A stretch of DNA of 64,000 nt from Methanotrichaceae archaeon (lineage in GTDB: Archaea > Halobacteriota > Methanosarcinia > Methanotrichales > Methanotrichaceae). The position numbers were made by a program, and so were the translations under genes. The notes under the pieces were generated by a model that ran no database searches, was not told the DNA's origin, and saw only the letters and a program-made list of their open reading frames with translations. Numbering within the stretch: the first letter of the stretch is position 1; the number at the start of each line of letters is the position of its first letter. Below, one piece after another: positions 11,745-17,724 of the stretch. The stretch spans positions 256,001 to 320,000 of the forward strand of contig CAWDLW010000015.1 of NCBI GenBank assembly GCA_963803145.1. The letters are read 5' to 3'.

Positions 11745-11931
11745 TTAACCTTCAGACTTGTTAGGTCGGGAATACAAGTCAGTTGCCTGTACCATGTATC
11801 CTGTAAAGTCGAACTTGGATTGGGCAACAACGTAGTAGGCACGGACTGTGTCGAATTCAAGCCTGTGGAGAACCCAGAAGGTGTTCGTTGAAGCAGGAAG
11901 CCCCGCTCTTCTAGGGCGGGGAGGAAGTCAC
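11745..11931 (+). mobile_element. IS200/IS605 non-autonomous remnant: tnpB 3' tail plus right-end hairpin
   Basis: VVGTDCVEFKPVE TnpB-like C-terminus (11832-11891), GAAGCAGGAAG, hairpin CCCCGCTC-TTCTA-GGGCGGGG (11901-11921), terminal TCAC (11928-11931); left boundary approximate. Confidence 0.75.
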
Positions 11932-13223
11932 TCAAGGAAATGGTGAGTCAGCTTGGTCACATCTCTGTAATTCACCACTCCTACCATCCTCTCATCATCA
12001 TCCACGACCGGCAGAGCCCTGAAGTCGTATCTTAAGAACATGGTTGATGCATCTCCAAGAGTGTTCTCCTTCTTTAGAGATATGACGTTCTTGACCATGA
12101 TATCCTTCAGTAGAGCTCTGTCATCTGCCTTCAGCAGTTCCTTGAGGTCGATCACTCCAAGCAGCTTATCGTCTTTATCGGTGACATAGAGATACATTAT
12201 CTCATCTTTGCCCTTTGCAAGCTTGGGATATCCATTCTGAACAGCCTCTACGGTCTCCTCTGGAGAAACCTTCAGGTATTTCTCCGTGGTGAGATTTTGA
12301 ATGTTCTCCTGCTGCTTCTCCAGAATCGACTTTATCTTATCTAGGTTATCCTGTTTCATCAACTTCATTATTGTATTCTGGTCCTCGAAGGTCAATACCG
12401 ATAGCACGTCCGCTGCCTGGCCTGGAGTCATCATATCTAATAGGCATGCCACTTTTTGTTTGTTCAAGGAGGATATTATCTCCCTCTGCATGTTCGGGTT
12501 TATCTCCTCCAGAGTATCTGAGGCATGATCGGCATCCAGCTGGTTGATGACCATCACTCTTTGCTCATGATCCAGGTCCTCCAGCATTTCCGCTAAATCT
12601 ACGGGCGGAAGGTCGTTCAGCTTATCTTTCAGTACCTTTAGCTTTACATTGCCTTTGAAGCTGTCAATATCAGATGGTAAAGCCTGAACATAGAGCCATG
12701 GGATAAGGGGATCCTCACTCTTTTCATGCTTCTTTTTGACCAGATGGGCAAATGGGCTTTCACTTCTCTCAAAATGGTCTAGGCCAATCCTTCTCAGCCT
12801 GGCATACATTGAAGGATCCACATCGGTCACGTAGAGCTTATTCTTAATGAGTACCATCTTGAGGTCGTAAACTACTTCCACTTCGTTGTCTTCCATATCG
12901 AGGATCTTCTTATCCAAAATGTAGTCCTTCAGGAGCACCATTCCTTCAGGGACTTTGCATGCGAACTTTTCGACATCATCGACGTCAATGACGATCTCTT
13001 TTCCATCGAATGATTGTACCTTTTCCCAAGGTATCATTAAGGAGGGATGACCAAAGGGACGGCTGATTACTAGATGTGTGACCTCAGCTGCCTTATCTTT
13101 ATCCAGTATGACCAGATCAGAGATACTGCCTATCTTCTTAGTCTTTACGAGGACCTTTTCTTTGAGCACATCGCTTAGAAAATAGGCCTTTTCAGCCAGA
13201 TGTTTTTCTTGAGGCTTCTCCAT
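11928..13223 (-). CDS. Cytosolic MgtE-like protein (PRC-barrel + MgtE N-domain + tandem CBS; no transmembrane pore)
   Basis: KIGSISDLV/KKILDMEDNEV PRC-like repeats, LPPVDLAEMLEDL MgtE_N, YLYVTDKDDKLLGVIDL and LPVVDDDERMVGVV CBS pair; no TM segments. Confidence 0.85.
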   Translation of the reverse strand: MEKPQEKHLAEKAYFLSDVLKEKVLVKTKKIGSISDLVILDKDKAAEVTHLVISRPFGHPSLMIPWEKVQSFDGKEIVIDVDDVEKFACKVPEGMVLLKDYILDKKILDMEDNEVEVVYDLKMVLIKNKLYVTDVDPSMYARLRRIGLDHFERSESPFAHLVKKKHEKSEDPLIPWLYVQALPSDIDSFKGNVKLKVLKDKLNDLPPVDLAEMLEDLDHEQRVMVINQLDADHASDTLEEINPNMQREIISSLNKQKVACLLDMMTPGQAADVLSVLTFEDQNTIMKLMKQDNLDKIKSILEKQQENIQNLTTEKYLKVSPEETVEAVQNGYPKLAKGKDEIMYLYVTDKDDKLLGVIDLKELLKADDRALLKDIMVKNVISLKKENTLGDASTMFLRYDFRALPVVDDDERMVGVVNYRDVTKLTHHFLE

Positions 13224-13237
13224 GGCTTCTCCTTTAG

Positions 13238-13462
13238 CTACCTAAAACTAACTATAGTATAGAACTTATACATCAATATGACCACCAGAAATATCAAATA
13301 AAGTCTGAGAATCAAGAGGGATGCCTTGACGAGAGGTGTCATCTTCAGCCTCGGTTGGCTATATTTTTTGTTGATCGCCTTTATCGTGGCAGTCCATTCC
13401 TTAAATACGCGACTGAGCCTTCCCTCCTCGGGCGATATACGGCATTCATCATCTGCATTCAT
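13238..13462 (-). CDS. Small single-TM membrane protein in Mg2+-transport operon
   Basis: 74 aa, C-terminal hydrophobic helix LLILRLYLIFLVVILMYKF; 2-nt and 14-nt gaps to neighbours. Confidence 0.75.
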   Translation of the reverse strand: MNADDECRISPEEGRLSRVFKEWTATIKAINKKYSQPRLKMTPLVKASLLILRLYLIFLVVILMYKFYTIVSFR

Positions 13463-13464
13463 AT

Positions 13465-14733
13465 TTATAACACCTCGGGGAAGAGGACGCTTATTGCATA
13501 CAGCGTCGAGAGAACGACTATCATTGTAACTATTGCTATACCAATTATATTCTGAATTAACGTATTCTTGTATCGCCCCATAAGCTCTTCCTGGTTTAGC
13601 AGCAATATCAGGAACACGAGGGCGGCAGGCAGAAGGGTAACTGCAATCACCTGTACGAACAGAGTTATGAGGACCAATGGTGCCCCTGGGATCAGCACTA
13701 CTGTGCCGGCTACGATCAGGCTCACGAAATAAAACGCATAGAACATTGGCGCTTCTGTTATCTTATTATTAATCGAATGAGCCCAGCCGAAAACTTCCCC
13801 CATGGCCCATGAACTTGCCATAGATATACATATAGCACCCAAGAGTCCAGCATCGAAGAGACCTATAGCCAGGGCAGCTCCGACCAGCGGATAGCTCCCA
13901 ATGATGACCTGAGCTGCCTGGGCTGCGTTATCTATAGTCGTGCCATTAGGCGGCTTGTAGAGCAGCATTCCTGTGAGGATCATGACGAACGCAGCCACGA
14001 ATATGACAAATATGGATCCCATCAGCGTATCAAACCTGGCCCAGGGAATATCCTTCTCTGTGAGCCCCTTATCAACAACTGAGCTTTGGTGGAAGAACAG
14101 CATCCATGGCGCGATGGTAGTTCCTATATTAGCCATCAGGAAGAAGAATATATCCGGAGTTATGCCGTTTGGGAAAACAGGGACTTTTAGAACCTGGCTG
14201 AAGTCAGGATGAAGGAGCAGCGTAGCAGGAACGTAAATCAGATTCAGCCCACAGAAGAGGAGAACAATCTTCTCCCAGGTCCAGTACCTGCCATGCATCA
14301 CAATGGCGACCATCAGTACGGAGACGCATACTACTGTTACTGCCGGTGGCACACCAAATACACGCATTGCCGCAGTCATACCTACGAATTCCGAGATCAA
14401 TGTGAGGAAATCCAAAAAGCCCAGGTCCAGCAGTGAGAACCAGCCCCAGAATGGACCAAATGCATCGAATATGGCCTCAGCATGTCCTCGTTTGGTGACT
14501 GCGCCAAGTCTCACACACATCTCTTGAACGGCAAAGGCTGCGGGACCAAGTAGTATTATAAACCAGATCAAGCTGTAGCCGAATTTAGCTCCCGTTGCCG
14601 CATAGGTGGTGATTCCGCCGGCATCGTTATCTGCTATCATCACGATTATGCCAGGGCCTGCAAGAGCCAAGTATAAACTCAACCATTTTACAAACCTGCG
14701 ATATTTATAGAAAAGGCTGGCTCCAAATTGCAT
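13465..14733 (-). CDS. NRAMP/SLC11-related divalent cation (probably Mg2+, NRMT-type) transporter
   Basis: GPGIIVMIADNDAGGITTY (DNDAG instead of DPGN), VQEMCVRLG, IGTTIAPW (instead of MPH); about 11 TM. Confidence 0.88.
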   Translation of the reverse strand: MQFGASLFYKYRRFVKWLSLYLALAGPGIIVMIADNDAGGITTYAATGAKFGYSLIWFIILLGPAAFAVQEMCVRLGAVTKRGHAEAIFDAFGPFWGWFSLLDLGFLDFLTLISEFVGMTAAMRVFGVPPAVTVVCVSVLMVAIVMHGRYWTWEKIVLLFCGLNLIYVPATLLLHPDFSQVLKVPVFPNGITPDIFFFLMANIGTTIAPWMLFFHQSSVVDKGLTEKDIPWARFDTLMGSIFVIFVAAFVMILTGMLLYKPPNGTTIDNAAQAAQVIIGSYPLVGAALAIGLFDAGLLGAICISMASSWAMGEVFGWAHSINNKITEAPMFYAFYFVSLIVAGTVVLIPGAPLVLITLFVQVIAVTLLPAALVFLILLLNQEELMGRYKNTLIQNIIGIAIVTMIVVLSTLYAISVLFPEVL

Positions 14734-14745
14734 TATACCAGATCC

Positions 14746-14925
14746 CTATTGATAATACTTCATTTCGCTATAGCAGCATATCCTTAGAGTATCACTCACA
14801 CCGGGATACCGTTTTTTTGGACGTGGCTGCTGTACCCAGAGGTATTCGTCTTCGGCACCTTCTGAAGACCTTGCCCCTTCCGATCGGCTGGTTGAGCTTT
14901 GAAAATCAACATATGTATGCCTCAT
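14746..14925 (-). CDS. Upstream ORF / putative leader peptide, 59 aa (MRHTYVDFQSSTSRSEGARSSEGAEDEYLWVQQPRPKKRYPGVSDTLRICCYSEMKYYQ)
   Basis: Manually translated; ATG 14925-14923 preceded by GCGGGG, TAG 14748-14746 ends 12 nt before the transporter ATG; lies downstream of TATA box at ~14990. Confidence 0.6.
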   Translation of the reverse strand: MRHTYVDFQSSTSRSEGARSSEGAEDEYLWVQQPRPKKRYPGVSDTLRICCYSEMKYYQ

Positions 14926-14986
14926 ATGCCCCGCAATTGGTCTTAAATTGCCTCAATGGCTATACTCGGCGGGTTGCCTTCTGATG

Positions 14987-15005
14987 TTATATAAGCCTTT
15001 TTTTC
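14987..15005 (-). promoter_or_regulatory. BRE/TATA promoter of the uORF-NRAMP-mgtE operon
   Basis: Minus strand GAAAAAAAGG-CTTATATAA; would place the TSS near 14963, giving an ~230-nt leader. Confidence 0.55.
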
Positions 15006-15103
15006 ATGATCTATTAAACATATAGTATTCCAGAGAATATTTATATAGGTTTTTAGTGATATACCAATAACTAGAATAAATTATTGGAAGAAATGGGATA
15101 ACT

Positions 15104-15562
15104 ATGGGCAGTACACAGGATTTGGATGAAATAGATTCATCCATCCTCAAGCTTCTCCGCGAGAATTCAAGGAGGAATTTCCACGAGCTATCCAAGCTAA
15201 CAGGCATTTCAGATGCAACTATCCAGTTCAGGCTGAAGCGCATGAAAGCTCGCGGGATAATTGATAAGTTCACAGTAATTGTGAACCCTGCAGCAACAGG
15301 CTACGCAGTCACCGCCATAATGCTCATACAGACTGAGACCGATAAGCATGACGAGGCCAAGGTAGCACTCGCAAAGATTCCGGAGGTCACAGAGGTATAT
15401 GGCGTTTTAGGAGAGCAGGATCTTTCCATCAAGGTCTGGTCCAGAAGCCTTCAAGAGCTTAATGCTATAATAAACGACAAAATAAGATCCATAGATGGCA
15501 TCGAGGATATTCAAGAGATCGTTGTAGTCGAAAGGGTGAAGGAAGAGATGCCACCTATTTAA
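15104..15562 (+). CDS. Lrp/AsnC family transcriptional regulator
   Basis: LDEIDSSILKLLRENSR HTH, RLKRMKARGII, C-terminal RAM domain (YGVLGEQD). Confidence 0.92.
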   Translation: MGSTQDLDEIDSSILKLLRENSRRNFHELSKLTGISDATIQFRLKRMKARGIIDKFTVIVNPAATGYAVTAIMLIQTETDKHDEAKVALAKIPEVTEVYGVLGEQDLSIKVWSRSLQELNAIINDKIRSIDGIEDIQEIVVVERVKEEMPPI

Positions 15563-15622
15563 AGGATTGATAAACGATAATAACTCAGAATGCCAAAGTA
15601 ACAATGGTCGTGATACACTTCG

Positions 15623-16684
15623 ATGCAGACTGGAAGAGATTCAACCAAATCGGATGCATTATACTCGCATCAGCCCCATGCCTGCAGTTCTGAAGAGGCT
15701 CCAAAGATAACCGTTATCGATTATGATGAAACCCATTACCAGGAGGCGGAGGTTAAGGTAGCTGAGGAATGTTTCACCTTCAGAGCCTTGCCAACAATAA
15801 CCTGGATAAACATAGATTGCCTCCAAAGCATCGATCTTCTCGATAAACTGGGTGCATGCTATGGGTTCCATCCATTGGTGCTGGAAGATATTCTCTCAGA
15901 TCAGCGCCCGAAGTTGGAGGACTACGAGGACTATATCTTCATAGTGCTCAAAATGTTATACTATCATGAGCATAATGGAGAAGCGGCCACAGAAGCAAAT
16001 CAAATAAGCATCATCCTCGGTCCGAATTATGTGATATCATTTAAAGAGAAGGCTGGAGATGTATTTGATCCCATCAGAGATCGCCTGAGGACTGGAAAGG
16101 GCAGAATACGGAAGCTGGGTGCGGACTATCTGGCCTACTCAATGATAGATGCAATAGTCGATAATTACTTTTTTATCATGGAGCGGCTTGGAGACAGGTT
16201 CGAAAATGTGGAGGATGCTGTCGTGACCCGACCGGATCCTGATGTTCTGCTGGATATATACAACCTGAGACAGGATACCCTCTCCCTGCGCAGATCTGTA
16301 TGGCCGGTGAGGGAGGCTATAAGCAAGATGGAGAGGACGGATTCGCCCCTTGTAACGGATGTCACGAAGGTCTACCTGAGAGATGTCTATGACCATACCA
16401 TTCAGGTGATAGAGAACATAGAGAACTTGAGGGATACTTCAGCATCGCTGCTTGATATCTACCTCTCCAGCCTGAGCAATCGACTTAACGAAGTGATCAA
16501 GGTACTAACAGTGATATCAACAATATTCATGCCCTTAACATTTATATCGGGGCTATTCGGGATGAATGTCCAGAGGATGATAGACTGGCTCCAGGTACCC
16601 TGGGCATTCTATGCTATCATCGCCTCTATGATTGCTGTAGTCGTTACAATGCTCGCATATTTCAGAAAGAAAGGATGGCTTTAA
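15623..16684 (+). CDS. corA: Magnesium/cobalt transporter CorA
   Basis: HPLVLEDI, QRPKLEDY, YLRDVYDH, C-terminal TM pair with GLFGMN signature. Confidence 0.95.
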   Translation: MQTGRDSTKSDALYSHQPHACSSEEAPKITVIDYDETHYQEAEVKVAEECFTFRALPTITWINIDCLQSIDLLDKLGACYGFHPLVLEDILSDQRPKLEDYEDYIFIVLKMLYYHEHNGEAATEANQISIILGPNYVISFKEKAGDVFDPIRDRLRTGKGRIRKLGADYLAYSMIDAIVDNYFFIMERLGDRFENVEDAVVTRPDPDVLLDIYNLRQDTLSLRRSVWPVREAISKMERTDSPLVTDVTKVYLRDVYDHTIQVIENIENLRDTSASLLDIYLSSLSNRLNEVIKVLTVISTIFMPLTFISGLFGMNVQRMIDWLQVPWAFYAIIASMIAVVVTMLAYFRKKGWL

Positions 16685-16695
16685 GAAGCTCTCAA

Positions 16696-17724
16696 TCAGA
16701 CCAATATCCTTTCATACCTCTGTTTAACCCTCTCCAATATATCCATATCATAAGGCTGGTGTGTAGGCAGTATCACATCTGCTGTCAGCCCTGAGCAGTC
16801 TGATGCAACTGTCGTGCCATCTGCTTGGACTGAAATCCTCAGGTCCCTGGCAATATCCTCAATGATTGGCGTCATCGGCCTGATTGGCCTGGCAGTCTTC
16901 GCTCTCTCCCTATAACTCTGGAGAAGGGCATCTATCTCTGCAGCTACTCCCTCAATATTGCCTGAACCGCATGCGGCTGATATCTTCTCTGCGCTCTCCT
17001 TGAGCTTAGATAGTGTGCCAACGCTTGCTTCAATAATCTTTCCAGAATAATGCTCTCTGACTTTATCCGCATAGCCTGGTGCTATTACTAGAAGCTCGAT
17101 ATCATTCAGCTTTTCCAGATCGTTCTCATCAGGCTTGTAGGCATTCACTACCAGGAAATCCAGGCCGAGGCGTAGGGCTAGGCTCTCATACATCGGTGTG
17201 ACACCTATCGGCCTTTTATCATTCATTATTACTCTTCTGACAGATTCCGGACGATCCGACATCAGGCCAAAATAATCCGCAAATGCCTTCGTAGTTGTAA
17301 TAACCTTTGTTCTTCCCTGCTTGGCACAGGATATCAGCCCCATCTTCTCAAGACCTTTGACATGAGCATAGCTTTTATTGCCTCTGATCTCTGCAAGTAT
17401 GCTCTGCTTTATTGGCTGTTTATAGGCTATTATCGCCAGAGTCCTTATAAGCGGTGCATCGATCTCTTTAGGGGCTACTGATATAACGCTATGAACAAGA
17501 GCTGTCCTGACCTGCATGGCGTATTCATCGCCGAATCTGATGATCTCCATGCCCCCGTTACGGATTGAGTATTCTTTTGCCAGCTCTTCGGCAAGGGTAT
17601 GAGCCATATCCTCAGGTATGCCCGAGAGGTCAGATAGCTCCCGGATTGAGAGCATTTTGCCGCTTGCAAAAAGCGCAGCCTCAATAACTGCCTTCGGGTC
17701 GATATCCTGAGCTGAAGAGTTCAT
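16696..17724 (-). CDS. scpB: Segregation and condensation protein B with long C-terminal extension
   Basis: IEAALF, TLAIIAYKQPI, IRGNK, TTKAFADYFGL; near smc/scpA. Confidence 0.92.
   Translation of the reverse strand: MNSSAQDIDPKAVIEAALFASGKMLSIRELSDLSGIPEDMAHTLAEELAKEYSIRNGGMEIIRFGDEYAMQVRTALVHSVISVAPKEIDAPLIRTLAIIAYKQPIKQSILAEIRGNKSYAHVKGLEKMGLISCAKQGRTKVITTTKAFADYFGLMSDRPESVRRVIMNDKRPIGVTPMYESLALRLGLDFLVVNAYKPDENDLEKLNDIELLVIAPGYADKVREHYSGKIIEASVGTLSKLKESAEKISAACGSGNIEGVAAEIDALLQSYRERAKTARPIRPMTPIIEDIARDLRISVQADGTTVASDCSGLTADVILPTHQPYDMDILERVKQRYERILV

What the first reader, a model, noticed from the sequence alone, without database searches (positions are those of the whole stretch)
14746..14990. 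Hidden 59-codon leader ORF (acidic patch + EYLWVQQPRP) in the structured 5' leader of an archaeal Mg2+-transporter operon
Seen: the only clear minus-strand TATA box is ~250 nt upstream of the NRAMP-type transporter. Most of the gap is one open frame, MRHTYVDFQSSTSRSEGARSSEGAEDEYLWVQQPRPKKRYPGVSDTLRICCYSEMKYYQ, one codon below the ORF cutoff, stopping 12 nt before the transporter ATG. The leader also holds hairpins (GCAATT/AATTGC, GTTGA/TCAAC, GTCTTC/GAAGAC, GAGT/ACTC inside ATCC/GGAT inside GCAGC/GCTGC) and lacks M-box or yybP-ykoY consensus. Established: in enterobacteria the acidic/Pro-rich leader peptide MgtL couples ribosome behaviour at low Mg2+ to mgtA expression. Inference: this may be a leader/arrest peptide that senses Mg2+ on the archaeal ribosome, with EDEYLWVQQP as the stalling motif. 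I know of no described archaeal equivalent.
Basis: partly seen in the sequence, partly recalled or inferred. Interest (0 to 1): 0.82.

Follow-up and report, generated by a model that had tools for sequence, protein, structure and literature searches.

The report
Conserved archaeal leader peptide, different frame

Summary
The 59-codon ORF (14746-14925, minus) exists, and so does the TATA box about 255 nt upstream of the transporter gene. There is no M-box or yybP-ykoY match. However, that frame is broken in every relative: the start is lost and there is a TGA in the closest one, and a TAA in two others. The leader also folds no better than shuffled copies.

What is conserved is the +1 frame, a 38-codon uORF at 14796-14912 (minus). 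Its N-terminus reads M-x-x-F-[KR]-x-Q-P-x-[DN]-R-x-G-Q-G-L-[QK]-[KR].
- It occurs once per genome, always directly upstream of the NRMT-type transporter, in 8 of the 11 Methanotrichaceae genomes that carry the orthologue, and nowhere else in 392 genomes of the class.
- Substitutions are mostly synonymous in this frame only: pN/pS is 0.04 for GQGL against about 2.7 in the other frames.
- An SD-like tetramer precedes the ATG in 11 of 11 versions.
- The tail beyond about codon 25 drifts and is frameshifted.

Best reading: a cis-acting regulatory leader peptide. Bacterial orthologues of the transporter carry M-box riboswitches, so Mg2+ is the likely signal, but this is inferred only. There are no expression data. 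The scan has noted leader uORFs before bacterial NRMT operons; this is the first archaeal case I saw in it.

The parts
14796..14912 (-). Conserved leader ORF (uORF): 38 codons plus TGA, peptide MLIFKAQPADRKGQGLQKVPKTNTSGYSSHVQKNGIPV.
   Evidence: ORF listing and homologues. The profile of its first 21 codons hits once per genome, always just upstream of the NRMT gene, in 8 of 105 family genomes (E 6.5e-13 to 2.8e-10; next best anywhere 0.004) and in no other of 392 class genomes.
14850..14912 (-). Constrained N-terminal part of the uORF (codons 1-21). Consensus M-x-x-F-[KR]-x-Q-P-x-[DN]-R-x-G-Q-G-L-[QK]-[KR].
   Evidence: Alignment A2. pN/pS is 0.47 for codons 4-18 against 0.97 and 1.14 in the other frames. 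In the substitution-placement test, frame 0 gives p down to <5e-5. All three antisense frames carry stops in several homologues. No consensus RNA structure.
14865..14885 (-). Core motif D-R-K-G-Q-G-L (codons 10-16). It is written in minor codons in this genome: CGG 0.08, GGG 0.14, CAA 0.28, GGT 0.15 of their families.
   Evidence: G13, Q14 and G15 are invariant in 10 of 10 versions with 3, 2 and 3 different codons. pN/pS is 0.04 for codons 13-16 against 2.78 and 2.69 in the other frames. Codon usage is from ORFs of at least 250 aa in this window only.
14920..14923 (-). Shine-Dalgarno-like GAGG, 7 nt upstream of the uORF ATG.
   Evidence: GGAG, GAGG or GGGG lies 3-9 nt upstream of the uORF ATG in 11 of 11 versions. 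The same tetramers occur before 16 of 37 long ORFs of the window and at 738 of 5000 random positions.
14987..14994 (-). TATA-like box TTATATAA of the operon promoter, 75-82 nt upstream of the uORF ATG. It follows an A-rich, BRE-like stretch.
   Evidence: Read. It is conserved 59-84 nt upstream of the uORF ATG in L001-L004, L135 and L015. The transcription start is not mapped.
14746..14925 (-). It is open in this genome only.
   Evidence: The frame is broken in L002 (no start, TGA) and in L003 and L004 (TAA). No peptide-level signal in this frame (frame 2).
13465..14733 (-). NRMT-type (NRAMP-related Mg2+) transporter gene, first long gene of the operon.
   Evidence: Pfam Nramp 8.2e-73. Best solved relative is 7qia at E 2.7e-62, with the NDAGGI and IGTTIAPWM site stretches identical. 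The site substitutions are as described in passages of PMC8806188.
13238..13462 (-). 74-aa small ORF between the transporter and the sensor-domain gene.
   Evidence: Conserved next to the transporter in 17 of 18 loci examined, including Methanosarcina, Methanoregulaceae and Omnitrophota. In the 18th locus, L135, the contig ends inside the transporter. No Pfam hit.
11928..13223 (-). Soluble MgtE_N + CBS protein (no pore), last gene of the operon.
   Evidence: Pfam MgtE_N 3.5e-19 and CBS 5.8e-18. Syntenic in 17 of 18 loci examined.
15104..15562 (+). Divergent Lrp/AsnC-family regulator gene. It shares the 370-nt intergenic region with the operon.
   Evidence: Pfam AsnC_trans_reg 2.4e-16 and HTH_AsnC 3e-12. 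Full-length beside 10 of 13 Methanotrichaceae-type loci examined, and cut to 29 codons in L002.
15623..16684 (+). CorA Mg2+ channel gene downstream of the Lrp gene.
   Evidence: Pfam CorA 2.3e-63.

Best explanation
The leader of the NRMT / 74-aa / MgtE_N-CBS operon carries a real, translated upstream ORF at 14796-14912 on the minus strand. It is not the 59-codon frame.

Only its first 18-25 codons matter. They encode M-x-x-F-[KR]-x-Q-P-x-[DN]-R-x-G-Q-G-L-[QK]-[KR]. I read this as a cis-acting regulatory leader peptide. While these residues lie in the exit tunnel, the nascent chain slows or stalls the ribosome on the leader, possibly helped by the minor codons of the core. Where the ribosome sits, or whether it reaches the uORF stop, then sets how well the transporter start is used. 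In one architecture the uORF stop lies 2-4 nt before the transporter start, which suggests termination-reinitiation or occlusion. In the other it lies 26-62 nt upstream.

The signal is most likely cytosolic Mg2+, because this element occupies the place that an M-box riboswitch holds in bacterial orthologues of the same transporter.

Shown: the ORF, its peptide-level conservation, its SD-like site, its exclusive link to this operon, and its drifting tail.
Inferred: that it is translated, that it stalls, what it does to the downstream genes, and the signal.
For: 1. Presence and exclusivity.
- Of 105 family genomes, 11 carry the transporter orthologue at E<=1e-100. In 8 of these 11 the 21-codon profile hits once, directly upstream of it (E 6.5e-13 to 2.8e-10). 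The next best hit anywhere is E 0.004.
- Across 392 class genomes the only other hit at E<=0.001 lies antisense inside a uvrA-like gene.
- Among 176 upstream regions of orthologues from genomes and metagenomes, 16 (10 distinct sequences) score E<=6e-12 and the rest score E>=0.6.

2. Coding signature in this frame only.
- pN/pS is 0.56 (codons 2-21), 0.47 (4-18), 0.27 (10-17) and 0.04 (13-16). The other two frames give 0.96-2.78.
- L015 and L018 differ at 37 of 63 bases, yet score BLOSUM +43 against a null of -7.8 (p<5e-5). The other frames score -13 and -23.
- 9 of 10 pairs have p<0.07 in frame 0.
- Gly13, Gln14 and Gly15 are invariant with 3, 2 and 3 different codons.
- The ATG is invariant.

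3. An SD-like tetramer lies 3-9 nt upstream in 11 of 11 versions, against a background of 15%.

4. Other explanations are excluded.
- All antisense frames have stops.
- The RNAalifold consensus is -0.88 kcal/mol with 0 compensatory pairs.

5. The tail is unconstrained.
- Lengths run from 26 to 57 codons.
- Between the two closest genomes a 1-nt indel at codon 26 shifts the frame.
- This fits a nascent-chain role better than a folded protein.

6. Link to Mg2+.
- The transporter is NRMT-type.
- 4 of 20 sampled orthologous loci have an Rfam M-box upstream, all four bacterial. By nhmmer the count is 14 of 169.
- Bacterial NrmT genes were found behind M-boxes (PMC4072509, passages).
- uORFs mgtL and corL control bacterial Mg2+ transporter genes (PMC11552253, passages).
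Against: - There are no expression data: no transcription start, no Ribo-seq and no proteomics.
- The sample is small and related: 10 distinct sequences from three genera of one family, all from metagenome-assembled genomes. The p-values come from overlapping pairs, and the 'core' windows were chosen after seeing the alignment.
- Over the whole 21 codons the third-position excess is modest: 34 extra base types (distinct bases minus one, summed over columns) at third positions against 20 and 22 at first and second.
- No conserved RNA switch links the uORF to the transporter start. Masking a 30-nt ribosome footprint opened the start region best near the motif in only 4 of 11 leaders, and elsewhere or not at all in 7 of 11. 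The leader is not unusually stable.
- The peptide has none of the Pro or acidic richness that makes MgtL Mg2+-sensitive.
- Three of the 11 genomes with the orthologue manage without an intact copy. G089 has a deletion of about 88 nt, G082 has a degenerate copy, and G002 has a strongly diverged one (hhalign probability 62%).
- Orthologous operons in Methanosarcina have short leaders with no uORF.
Confidence: 0.6

Rival explanations
1. The uORF encodes a small protein that acts in trans, for example on the NRMT transporter, the MgtE_N-CBS sensor protein or the Lrp regulator. This would resemble small regulators of transporters in bacteria.
For: Peptide-level conservation and strict co-occurrence with the operon fit this reading as well as the cis model. 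A leader peptide with a trans role is on record: peTrpL, PMC7298713, seen only as a listing and abstract.
Against: - Only the first 18-25 residues are kept.
- The tails differ in length (26-57 aa) and are unrelated between groups. They are frameshifted between the two closest genomes.
- No gene caller's product like it exists among 5.8 billion clusters or 1.84 billion representatives. The single hit there, at E 5.9e-4, is an unrelated repeat protein.
- The peptide is hydrophilic, so it is not a membrane partner of the kind known for transporters.
Confidence: 0.2
2. The conserved block is a non-coding element, either an RNA motif or an operator for the Lrp-type or another regulator. On this view the open frame is incidental.
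For: Some nucleotide-level conservation exists: CATATG at the start and CAAGG(T/C)CTT in the core. The control frames also reach p 0.025-0.06 in a few pairs, as expected if differences are clustered. Gln14 uses the minor codon CAA in 8 of 10 versions.
Against: - Variation falls on third positions of one frame only, with pN/pS 0.04-0.56 against at least 0.96 in the other frames.
- Two versions that differ at 59% of bases keep the peptide.
- There is no consensus structure and there are no compensatory pairs.
- No Rfam hit.
- The block lies 75-140 nt downstream of the TATA box, which is not where archaeal repressors usually bind (general knowledge).
Confidence: 0.08
3. One reading: the 59-codon ORF 14746-14925 is the functional leader or arrest peptide, with the acidic patch and EDEYLWVQQP as the stalling motif.
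For: The ORF is open here, has GGGG 4-7 nt upstream of its ATG, ends 12 nt before the transporter start, and is longer than 96-97% of shuffles.
Against: - The start codon is deleted and an in-frame TGA is present in the nearest relative.
- There is a TAA in L003 and L004.
- The motif is lost through a 1-nt indel.
- No peptide-level signal in this frame (frame 2; pN/pS 1.07-2.69).
Confidence: 0.03
4. A translated uORF that merely damps or couples translation of the transporter, with no sensing and no role for the peptide sequence.
For: In five versions the uORF stop lies 2-4 nt before the transporter start, with the transporter's SD inside the uORF. That is the classic layout of translational coupling.
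Against: It does not explain why the amino-acid sequence of codons 4-18 is kept through synonymous change.
Confidence: 0.09

Closest known systems
MgtL (mgtA leader) and CorL (corA leader) of Salmonella and E. coli
   Same: A short ORF in the 5' leader of a Mg2+ transporter gene. Its translation efficiency sets expression of the transporter (PMC11552253, passages read).
   Different: - No sequence relation; NCBIfam and Pfam give nothing.
- The peptide is basic with one Pro and one Asp, not Pro- and acid-rich.
- No pair of alternative leader helices was found.
- The bacterial output is Rho-dependent termination, and archaea have no Rho (general knowledge).
- The host is a methanogenic archaeon.
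M-box (RF00380) riboswitch in front of bacterial NrmT/NRMT genes
   Same: It holds the same position, upstream of orthologues of the same transporter. 4 of 20 sampled loci, all bacterial, have it, and 14 of 169 do by nhmmer. Shin et al. 2014, PMC4072509, passages.
   Different: The M-box is an RNA aptamer that binds Mg2+ directly. Here there is no M-box, and the conserved element is read as a peptide.
Sequence-specific ribosome arrest or sensor peptides (SecM, TnaC, ErmBL/ErmCL, MifM class)
   Same: - Conservation is at the amino-acid level over about 18 residues, a length that fits the exit tunnel.
- The sequence beyond that is free to drift.
- The element sits immediately upstream of the regulated gene.
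   Different: - Stalling has not been shown.
- No motif is shared with those peptides (comparison from recall only, not tested by a tool).
- No arrest peptide from an archaeon turned up in my searches.
Leader uORFs noted by this scan before bacterial NRMT operons (AI notes e1-5262645, e1-5039761, e1-2159318, e1-2166200, e1-2741057)
   Same: Lineage-specific short ORFs under peptide selection in the leader of NRMT or Mg2+ transporter operons that lack an M-box.
   Different: Those are bacterial, and their peptides were not seen by me. No look-alike of this peptide is in the scan's index. They are unchecked notes, not evidence.

Membership tests
MgtL-type Mg2+-sensing leader peptide | Short ORF inside the 5' leader of a Mg2+ transporter gene | tested here: met
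   The uORF at 14796-14912 lies between the TATA box (14987-14994) and the NRMT start (14733). The transporter is NRMT-type.
MgtL-type Mg2+-sensing leader peptide | Proline codons and acidic residues that make elongation depend on Mg2+ (PMC11552253, passages) | tested here: not met
   The consensus has one Pro, one Asp/Asn and three to five Lys/Arg. The acidic patch belongs to the non-conserved frame.
MgtL-type Mg2+-sensing leader peptide | Two mutually exclusive leader RNA structures coupled to Rho-dependent termination | tested here: not met
   Leader fold z +0.53. No consensus structure. The footprint-masking test was inconsistent, 4 of 11. That archaea lack Rho is general knowledge.
MgtL-type Mg2+-sensing leader peptide | Sequence homology to MgtL or CorL | tested here: not met
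   No NCBIfam or Pfam family at E<=1 for four versions of the peptide.
Ribosome arrest / sensor nascent peptides | Selection on the amino-acid sequence of a tunnel-length stretch, with free sequence outside it | tested here: met
   pN/pS is 0.04-0.56 in this frame only. Substitution test. Tails are 26-57 aa, unrelated and frameshifted.
Ribosome arrest / sensor nascent peptides | Ribosome stalling at a defined codon, conditional on a signal | not testable with these tools
   This needs toeprinting or Ribo-seq. No RNA run is listed for this DNA.
Ribosome arrest / sensor nascent peptides | The stalled ribosome changes access to the downstream start (mRNA rearrangement, coupling) | tested here: inconclusive
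   The masking test supports it in 4 of 11 leaders only. In five versions the uORF stop is 2-4 nt from the transporter start.
M-box riboswitch (RF00380) | Match to the Rfam covariance model at gathering score | tested here: not met
   None in the window at 13000-17000 at E<=10, nor in L001 at gathering score. It is present in 4 of 20 sampled orthologous loci.
yybP-ykoY (Mn2+) riboswitch | Match to the Rfam model | tested here: not met
   No match at E<=10.
NRMT (NRAMP-related Mg2+ transporter), for the downstream gene | Metal-site substitutions relative to classical NRAMP: Asn to Gly on helix 1, Ala to Thr and Met to Ala on helix 6, first helix-6b His to Trp (PMC8806188, passages) | tested here: met
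   The alignment to 7qia shows NDAGGI and IGTTIAPWM identical in query and EleNRMT, at E 2.7e-62. The second helix-6b position is His here and Asn in EleNRMT.

The most novel reading that the evidence does not exclude
This is the first ribosome-arrest or sensor leader peptide of an archaeon. The nascent M-x-x-F-K-x-Q-P-x-D-R-x-G-Q-G-L chain would make the archaeal ribosome itself the Mg2+ (or cation) sensor for an NRMT uptake operon. It would be a functional replacement for the bacterial M-box that arose independently of MgtL. A second, unrelated 6-codon leader ORF sits before the same operon in Methanoregulaceae.
Probability: 0.3. Interest if true: 0.85.

Novelty: new variant of a known kind. 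Interest (0 to 1): 0.6.

Why it matters
Regulatory leader peptides are textbook material in bacteria (trpL, mgtL, secM, tnaC) and in eukaryotes. For archaea I found only lists of candidate uORFs from ribosome profiling (PMC11456600 and PMC10117724, passages). I found no worked example in searches.

Here is a concrete candidate defined by comparison. It has a short motif, a defined start, two natural architectures and natural loss variants. It sits in front of an operon whose bacterial orthologues are known to be Mg2+-regulated.

That makes two questions directly testable with reporter fusions and toeprinting:
- Do archaeal ribosomes use nascent-peptide sensing?
- How do methanogens regulate Mg2+ uptake?

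It also warns that in such leaders the longest ORF is not necessarily the functional one.

Tried and rejected
Rejected by comparison.
- **Structured leader.** Not supported.
- **Conserved RNA structure in the conserved block.** None found.
- **RBS unmasking by a ribosome on the motif.** The largest opening came with the mask centred at +38 to +62 in 4 of 11 leaders (L001, L004, L100, L019). It was elsewhere or absent in 7 of 11. This is inconclusive and is not used as support.
- **T-run in transporter codons 6-9 as an archaeal terminator.** It is T4-T8 in all 11 uORF loci. However, 64 of 129 other distinct orthologues also have T4 or longer, and the run encodes the conserved (L/F)FY. I rejected it as a by-product.
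- **Antisense ORF 14817-14984 (+) as the real gene.** Stops occur in all antisense frames in relatives.
- **Similarity between GATCGGAAGGGG here and GATCGAATGGGGGG in Methanoregula leaders.** I judged it coincidental, because it is not kept in the other Methanotrichaceae versions.
- **Search for the peptide among predicted proteins.** None among 5.8 billion clusters. One unrelated repeat protein appeared at E 5.9e-4 among 1.84 billion representatives. No Pfam or NCBIfam family.
- **Expression.** No RNA holder is listed for this DNA.
- **Binding of the peptide to operon proteins.** Not tested.
- **Literature.** Searches were run. I read passages only of PMC4072509, PMC8806188, PMC11552253, PMC11456600 and PMC10117724. 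From PMC11890864 I saw only a reference-list line. All other papers were seen as listings or abstracts.
- **Supplements were closed.** The uORF tables of PMC11456600 and supplementary figures S4 and S5 of PMC4072509 might bear on archaeal uORFs and on NRMT operon contexts.
Full report
**What is at the coordinates**

The minus strand of 14734-15103 is the 370-nt intergenic region between two gene sets.
- One is an operon: an Nramp-family transporter (13465-14733), a 74-aa ORF (13238-13462) and a soluble MgtE_N + CBS protein (11928-13223).
- The other is a divergent Lrp/AsnC regulator gene (15104-15562), followed by corA (15623-16684).

A TATA-like TTATATAA lies at 14987-14994. No Rfam family matches in 13000-17000 even at E<=10, so there is no M-box and no yybP-ykoY.

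The 'structured leader' is not borne out. The minimum free energy is -63 kcal/mol against -65.6 +/- 4.9 for dinucleotide shuffles (z +0.53), and 137 of 200 shuffles fold at least as well. A 59-codon ATG ORF turns up in 140 of 5000 shuffles of the leader and in 204 of 5000 shuffles of the intergenic region. An ORF of 38 codons or more turns up in 967 and 1249 of 5000. ORF length alone therefore says little.

**The organism and the transporter**

Named relatives of the locus are Methanotrichaceae / Methanothrix metagenome-assembled genomes. The transporter's best solved relative is 7qia at E 2.7e-62. That entry is the Mg2+-transporting EleNRMT of PMC8806188. Canonical MntH/Nramp chains score about 1e-14.

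The aligned site stretches NDAGGI and IGTTIAPWM are identical to EleNRMT. They carry the substitutions that the paper describes for NRMTs: Asn to Gly, Ala to Thr, Met to Ala and His to Trp (passages).

**Comparison with relatives**

Searching the transporter in 41 relatives and then in 105 genomes of the family gave 11 genomes with an orthologue at E<=1e-100 (77-100% identity), in three genera. I aligned the leaders and translated them in all frames.

- In the closest genome (L002, transporter 95% identical) the start codon is deleted, the frame has a TGA, and a 1-nt indel turns EDEYLWVQQPRP into EDECLRYCSTIR.
- In L003 and L004 the frame has a TAA.

A different frame is kept. The versions are:

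| Locus | Peptide | Length |
|---|---|---|
| Window | MLIFKAQPADRKGQGLQKVPK... | 38 aa |
| L002 | MLFLKTQPNDRKGQGLQRMPK... | 47 aa |
| L003 | MSTFKAQPADCKGQGPKKSPA... | 53 aa |
| L004, L135 | MSMSKAQPADRKGQGLK(K/E)SPA... | 53 aa |
| L014 | MQAFRNQLRDRAGQGLQRAALDIPEG | 26 aa |
| L100 | MQAFRNQLRGRAGQGLQRAAVDRILES | 27 aa |
| L015 | MRIIIFNSWPKDRKGQGLII... | 38 aa |
| L016 | MLAFRNRPRNRIGQGLQRSALDTPER | 26 aa |
| L018 | MLAFRNQPRNRTGQGLQRSALDTPER | 26 aa |

In L003, L004 and L135 an in-frame ATG four codons upstream would give 57 aa. The consensus is M-x-x-F-[KR]-x-Q-P-x-[DN]-R-x-G-Q-G-L-[QK]-[KR].

**How specific it is**

- A profile of the first 21 codons, run over the six-frame translation of 105 family genomes, hits 8 genomes at E 6.5e-13 to 2.8e-10. 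Each genome has one hit, always directly upstream of the transporter. The next best hit anywhere is E 0.004.
- Over 392 genomes of the class, the same 8 appear plus one hit at E 1.5e-4. That hit lies antisense inside a uvrA-like 757-aa ORF and is chance.
- I took 176 upstream regions of orthologues from species genomes, named genome contigs and metagenome contigs. Several loci are the same contig fetched twice. Of these, 16 (10 distinct sequences) score E<=6e-12 and all others score E>=0.6.
- The element is absent from the 72-76% identical Methanosarcina orthologues, whose leaders are short with a strong SD. It is also absent from Methanoregulaceae and from bacterial orthologues.
- Three of the 11 family genomes with the orthologue lack an intact copy. 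G089 (L017) has a deletion of about 88 nt. G082 (L019) has a degenerate version, MLANRNQSRNNAGHYLH. G002 (L005) has a strongly diverged ORF, MSAFESRVKDKNGHGFH, behind a GAGGAG. It aligns start to start with the profile at hhalign probability 62%, pairwise E 7e-5.

**Coding or not**

The evidence that this frame is read as protein is as follows.

- **Synonymous versus non-synonymous change.** The ratios below are. The windows were chosen after seeing the alignment, so the narrow ones overstate the signal.

| Codons | pN/pS, uORF frame | pN/pS, other two frames |
|---|---|---|
| 2-21 | 0.56 | 0.96, 1.07 |
| 4-18 | 0.47 | 0.97, 1.14 |
| 10-17 | 0.27 | 1.24, 1.88 |
| 13-16 | 0.04 | 2.78, 2.69 |

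- **Invariant residues, varied codons.** Gly13 uses GGG, GGC and GGT. Gln14 uses CAA and CAG. Gly15 uses GGT, GGA and GGC. Arg11 uses CGG, CGA and CGT. The residues stay the same.
- **Substitution-placement test.** I placed the observed number of differences at random and compared BLOSUM scores. The uORF frame gives p 1e-4 (L001-L018), <5e-5 (L015-L018, which differ at 37 of 63 bases: +43 against a null of -7.8), 0.003, 0.003 and 0.009. In all, 9 of 10 pairs have p<0.07; the tenth is 0.11. The other two frames range from 0.025 to 0.91.
- **Antisense frames.** All three carry stop codons inside the conserved block in several homologues.
- **RNA structure.** RNAalifold finds no structure there: -0.88 kcal/mol, four weak pairs and no compensatory change.
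- **Start site.** The ATG is invariant. A GGAG, GAGG or GGGG lies 3-9 nt upstream in 11 of 11 versions. Such tetramers precede 16 of 37 long ORFs of the window and occur at 738 of 5000 random positions.

There are caveats. Over all 21 codons the third-position excess is modest: 34 extra base types (distinct bases minus one, summed over columns) at third positions against 20 and 22 at first and second. The sequences are related. All come from assembled metagenomes.

**Anatomy that bears on mechanism**

- **Only the N-terminal part is constrained.** Total lengths run from 26 to 57 codons, and the tails of the two groups are unrelated. The window and its nearest relative keep register through codon 25. 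They then differ by a 1-nt indel, so the tails are read in different frames.
- **There are two layouts.** In six versions (L001, L002, L003, L004, L135, L015) the uORF stop lies 26-62 nt before the transporter start. In five (L014, L100, L016, L018 and the degenerate L019) it lies 2-4 nt before it, and the transporter's GGAG-type SD is inside the last uORF codons.
- **The uORF lies inside the presumed transcript.** The TATA box is 59-84 nt upstream of the uORF ATG in the first group.
- **The core uses minor codons in this genome.** CGG is 0.08, GGG 0.14, CAA 0.28 and GGT 0.15 of their families, estimated from long ORFs of this window only.
- **I could not find a conserved RNA switch.** Masking a 30-nt footprint along each leader opened the transporter start region most strongly near the motif in 4 of 11 leaders and not in 7.

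**The link to Mg2+ is by association**

- The three-gene module (transporter, small ORF, MgtE_N/CBS) is kept in 17 of 18 loci examined, across archaea and bacteria. The 18th locus ends inside the transporter.
- 4 of 20 sampled orthologous loci have an Rfam M-box at gathering score upstream on the same strand. They come from Actinomycetes, Chloroflexi, Acidobacteriota and Geobacteraceae genomes, with the transporter 63-66% identical. None of the 8 archaeal loci in that sample has one.
- An nhmmer profile built from those four finds 14 of 169 loci.
- Bacterial NrmT genes were discovered because they sit behind M-boxes (PMC4072509, passages).
- In enterobacteria the uORFs mgtL and corL set mgtA and corA expression through their translation efficiency (PMC11552253, passages).

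**Interpretation**

The best-supported reading is a cis-acting regulatory leader peptide. Its N-terminal 18-25 residues act as a nascent chain. The output would be coupling or occlusion at the transporter start, and Mg2+ is the likely signal.

| Claim | My odds |
|---|---|
| The uORF is a real coding element under selection | about 0.85 |
| It regulates the operon in cis through the ribosome | about 0.6 |
| Mg2+ is the signal | about 0.4 |

It is not a member of the MgtL family. There is no homology, the peptide is not Pro- or acid-rich, there are no alternative helices, and archaea have no Rho. It works 'like' that class only in the broad sense.

I found no archaeal arrest or leader peptide with a shown function in searches. 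Archaeal Ribo-seq papers list 5'-UTR small ORFs only as potential uORFs (passages). This scan has already noted lineage-specific leader uORFs before bacterial NRMT operons. Those are AI notes and I did not test them. They led me to scan the other orthologous loci.

**Seen in passing**

Methanoregulaceae-type orthologues carry their own conserved leader element in 21 of 162 loci with enough upstream sequence. It consists of a hairpin (CCATTCG ... CGAATGG, with a variable loop), a G-run SD and a 6-codon ORF, M-[TIN]-x-T-M-[HNDG]. The ORF ends 17-28 nt before the transporter start and uses all three stop codons: 13 TGA, 6 TAA and 1 TAG among 20 distinct versions. Two archaeal lineages therefore have unrelated short ORFs in front of the same operon.

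Noticed in passing
L047:1452-1472 (+), and 20 further loci (L048, L049, L054, L056, L057, L059, L065, L075, L076, L087, L099, L122, L123, L128, L132, L133, L137, L153, L161, L164): Methanoregulaceae-type NRMT operons have their own conserved leader. It consists of a hairpin CCATTCG...CGAATGG with a variable loop, a G-run SD and a 6-codon ORF M-[TIN]-x-T-M-[HNDG]. The ORF ends 17-28 nt before the transporter start. All three stop codons are used at the same place (13 TGA, 6 TAA, 1 TAG among 20 distinct versions; 21 of 162 loci). It is unrelated to the Methanotrichaceae uORF.
   Followed up: partly
window 15053-15067; better copies in L003, L014, L016 and L018 upstream regions: An inverted repeat of the type TTGGTA-N5-TACCAA lies between the second TATA-like box (15040-15048, TTTATATAG on the + strand) and the Lrp/AsnC start (15104). 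It is imperfect in the window (TTGGTATATCACTAA) and near-perfect in relatives (ATTGGTAATTTGCCAAT, ATTGGTAGTTTACCAAC), with extra TTGCCAA/TTGGCAA copies in the short-leader group. It is probably the regulator's own operator.
   Followed up: no
L002 (G001), upstream of the operon: In the nearest relative the divergent Lrp/AsnC gene is reduced to its first 29 codons, and corA lies next to it in the opposite orientation. The uORF is intact there. L005 and L019, whose uORFs are diverged or degenerate, show no Lrp gene within the 1.5-kb flank. The numbers are too small to call a correlation.
   Followed up: partly
L089:1026-1193, L063:922-1088, L066:739-915, L069:898-1065: M-box riboswitches (RF00380, 98-142 bits) lie upstream of bacterial orthologues (63-66% identical) of the window's transporter. 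nhmmer with these four as seed finds 14 of 169 loci.
   Followed up: partly
window 13238-13462 (-), and all orthologous loci examined: The 74-aa ORF between the transporter and the MgtE_N/CBS gene is conserved (52-82% identity) in 17 of 18 loci from Methanotrichaceae, Methanosarcina, Methanoregulaceae and Omnitrophota. It has no Pfam family. This belongs to the scan's separate note e1-6368107.
   Followed up: partly
L017 (G089), about 35-120 nt upstream of the transporter start: A natural deletion of about 88 nt relative to L018 removes the uORF from its start through the GQGL core. Only the last 10 codons (MRSALDNPER) and the transporter start remain. It is a ready-made natural loss variant.
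   Followed up: no
In the window one extra base puts it out of frame, and that creates the 59-codon ORF.
   Followed up: partly
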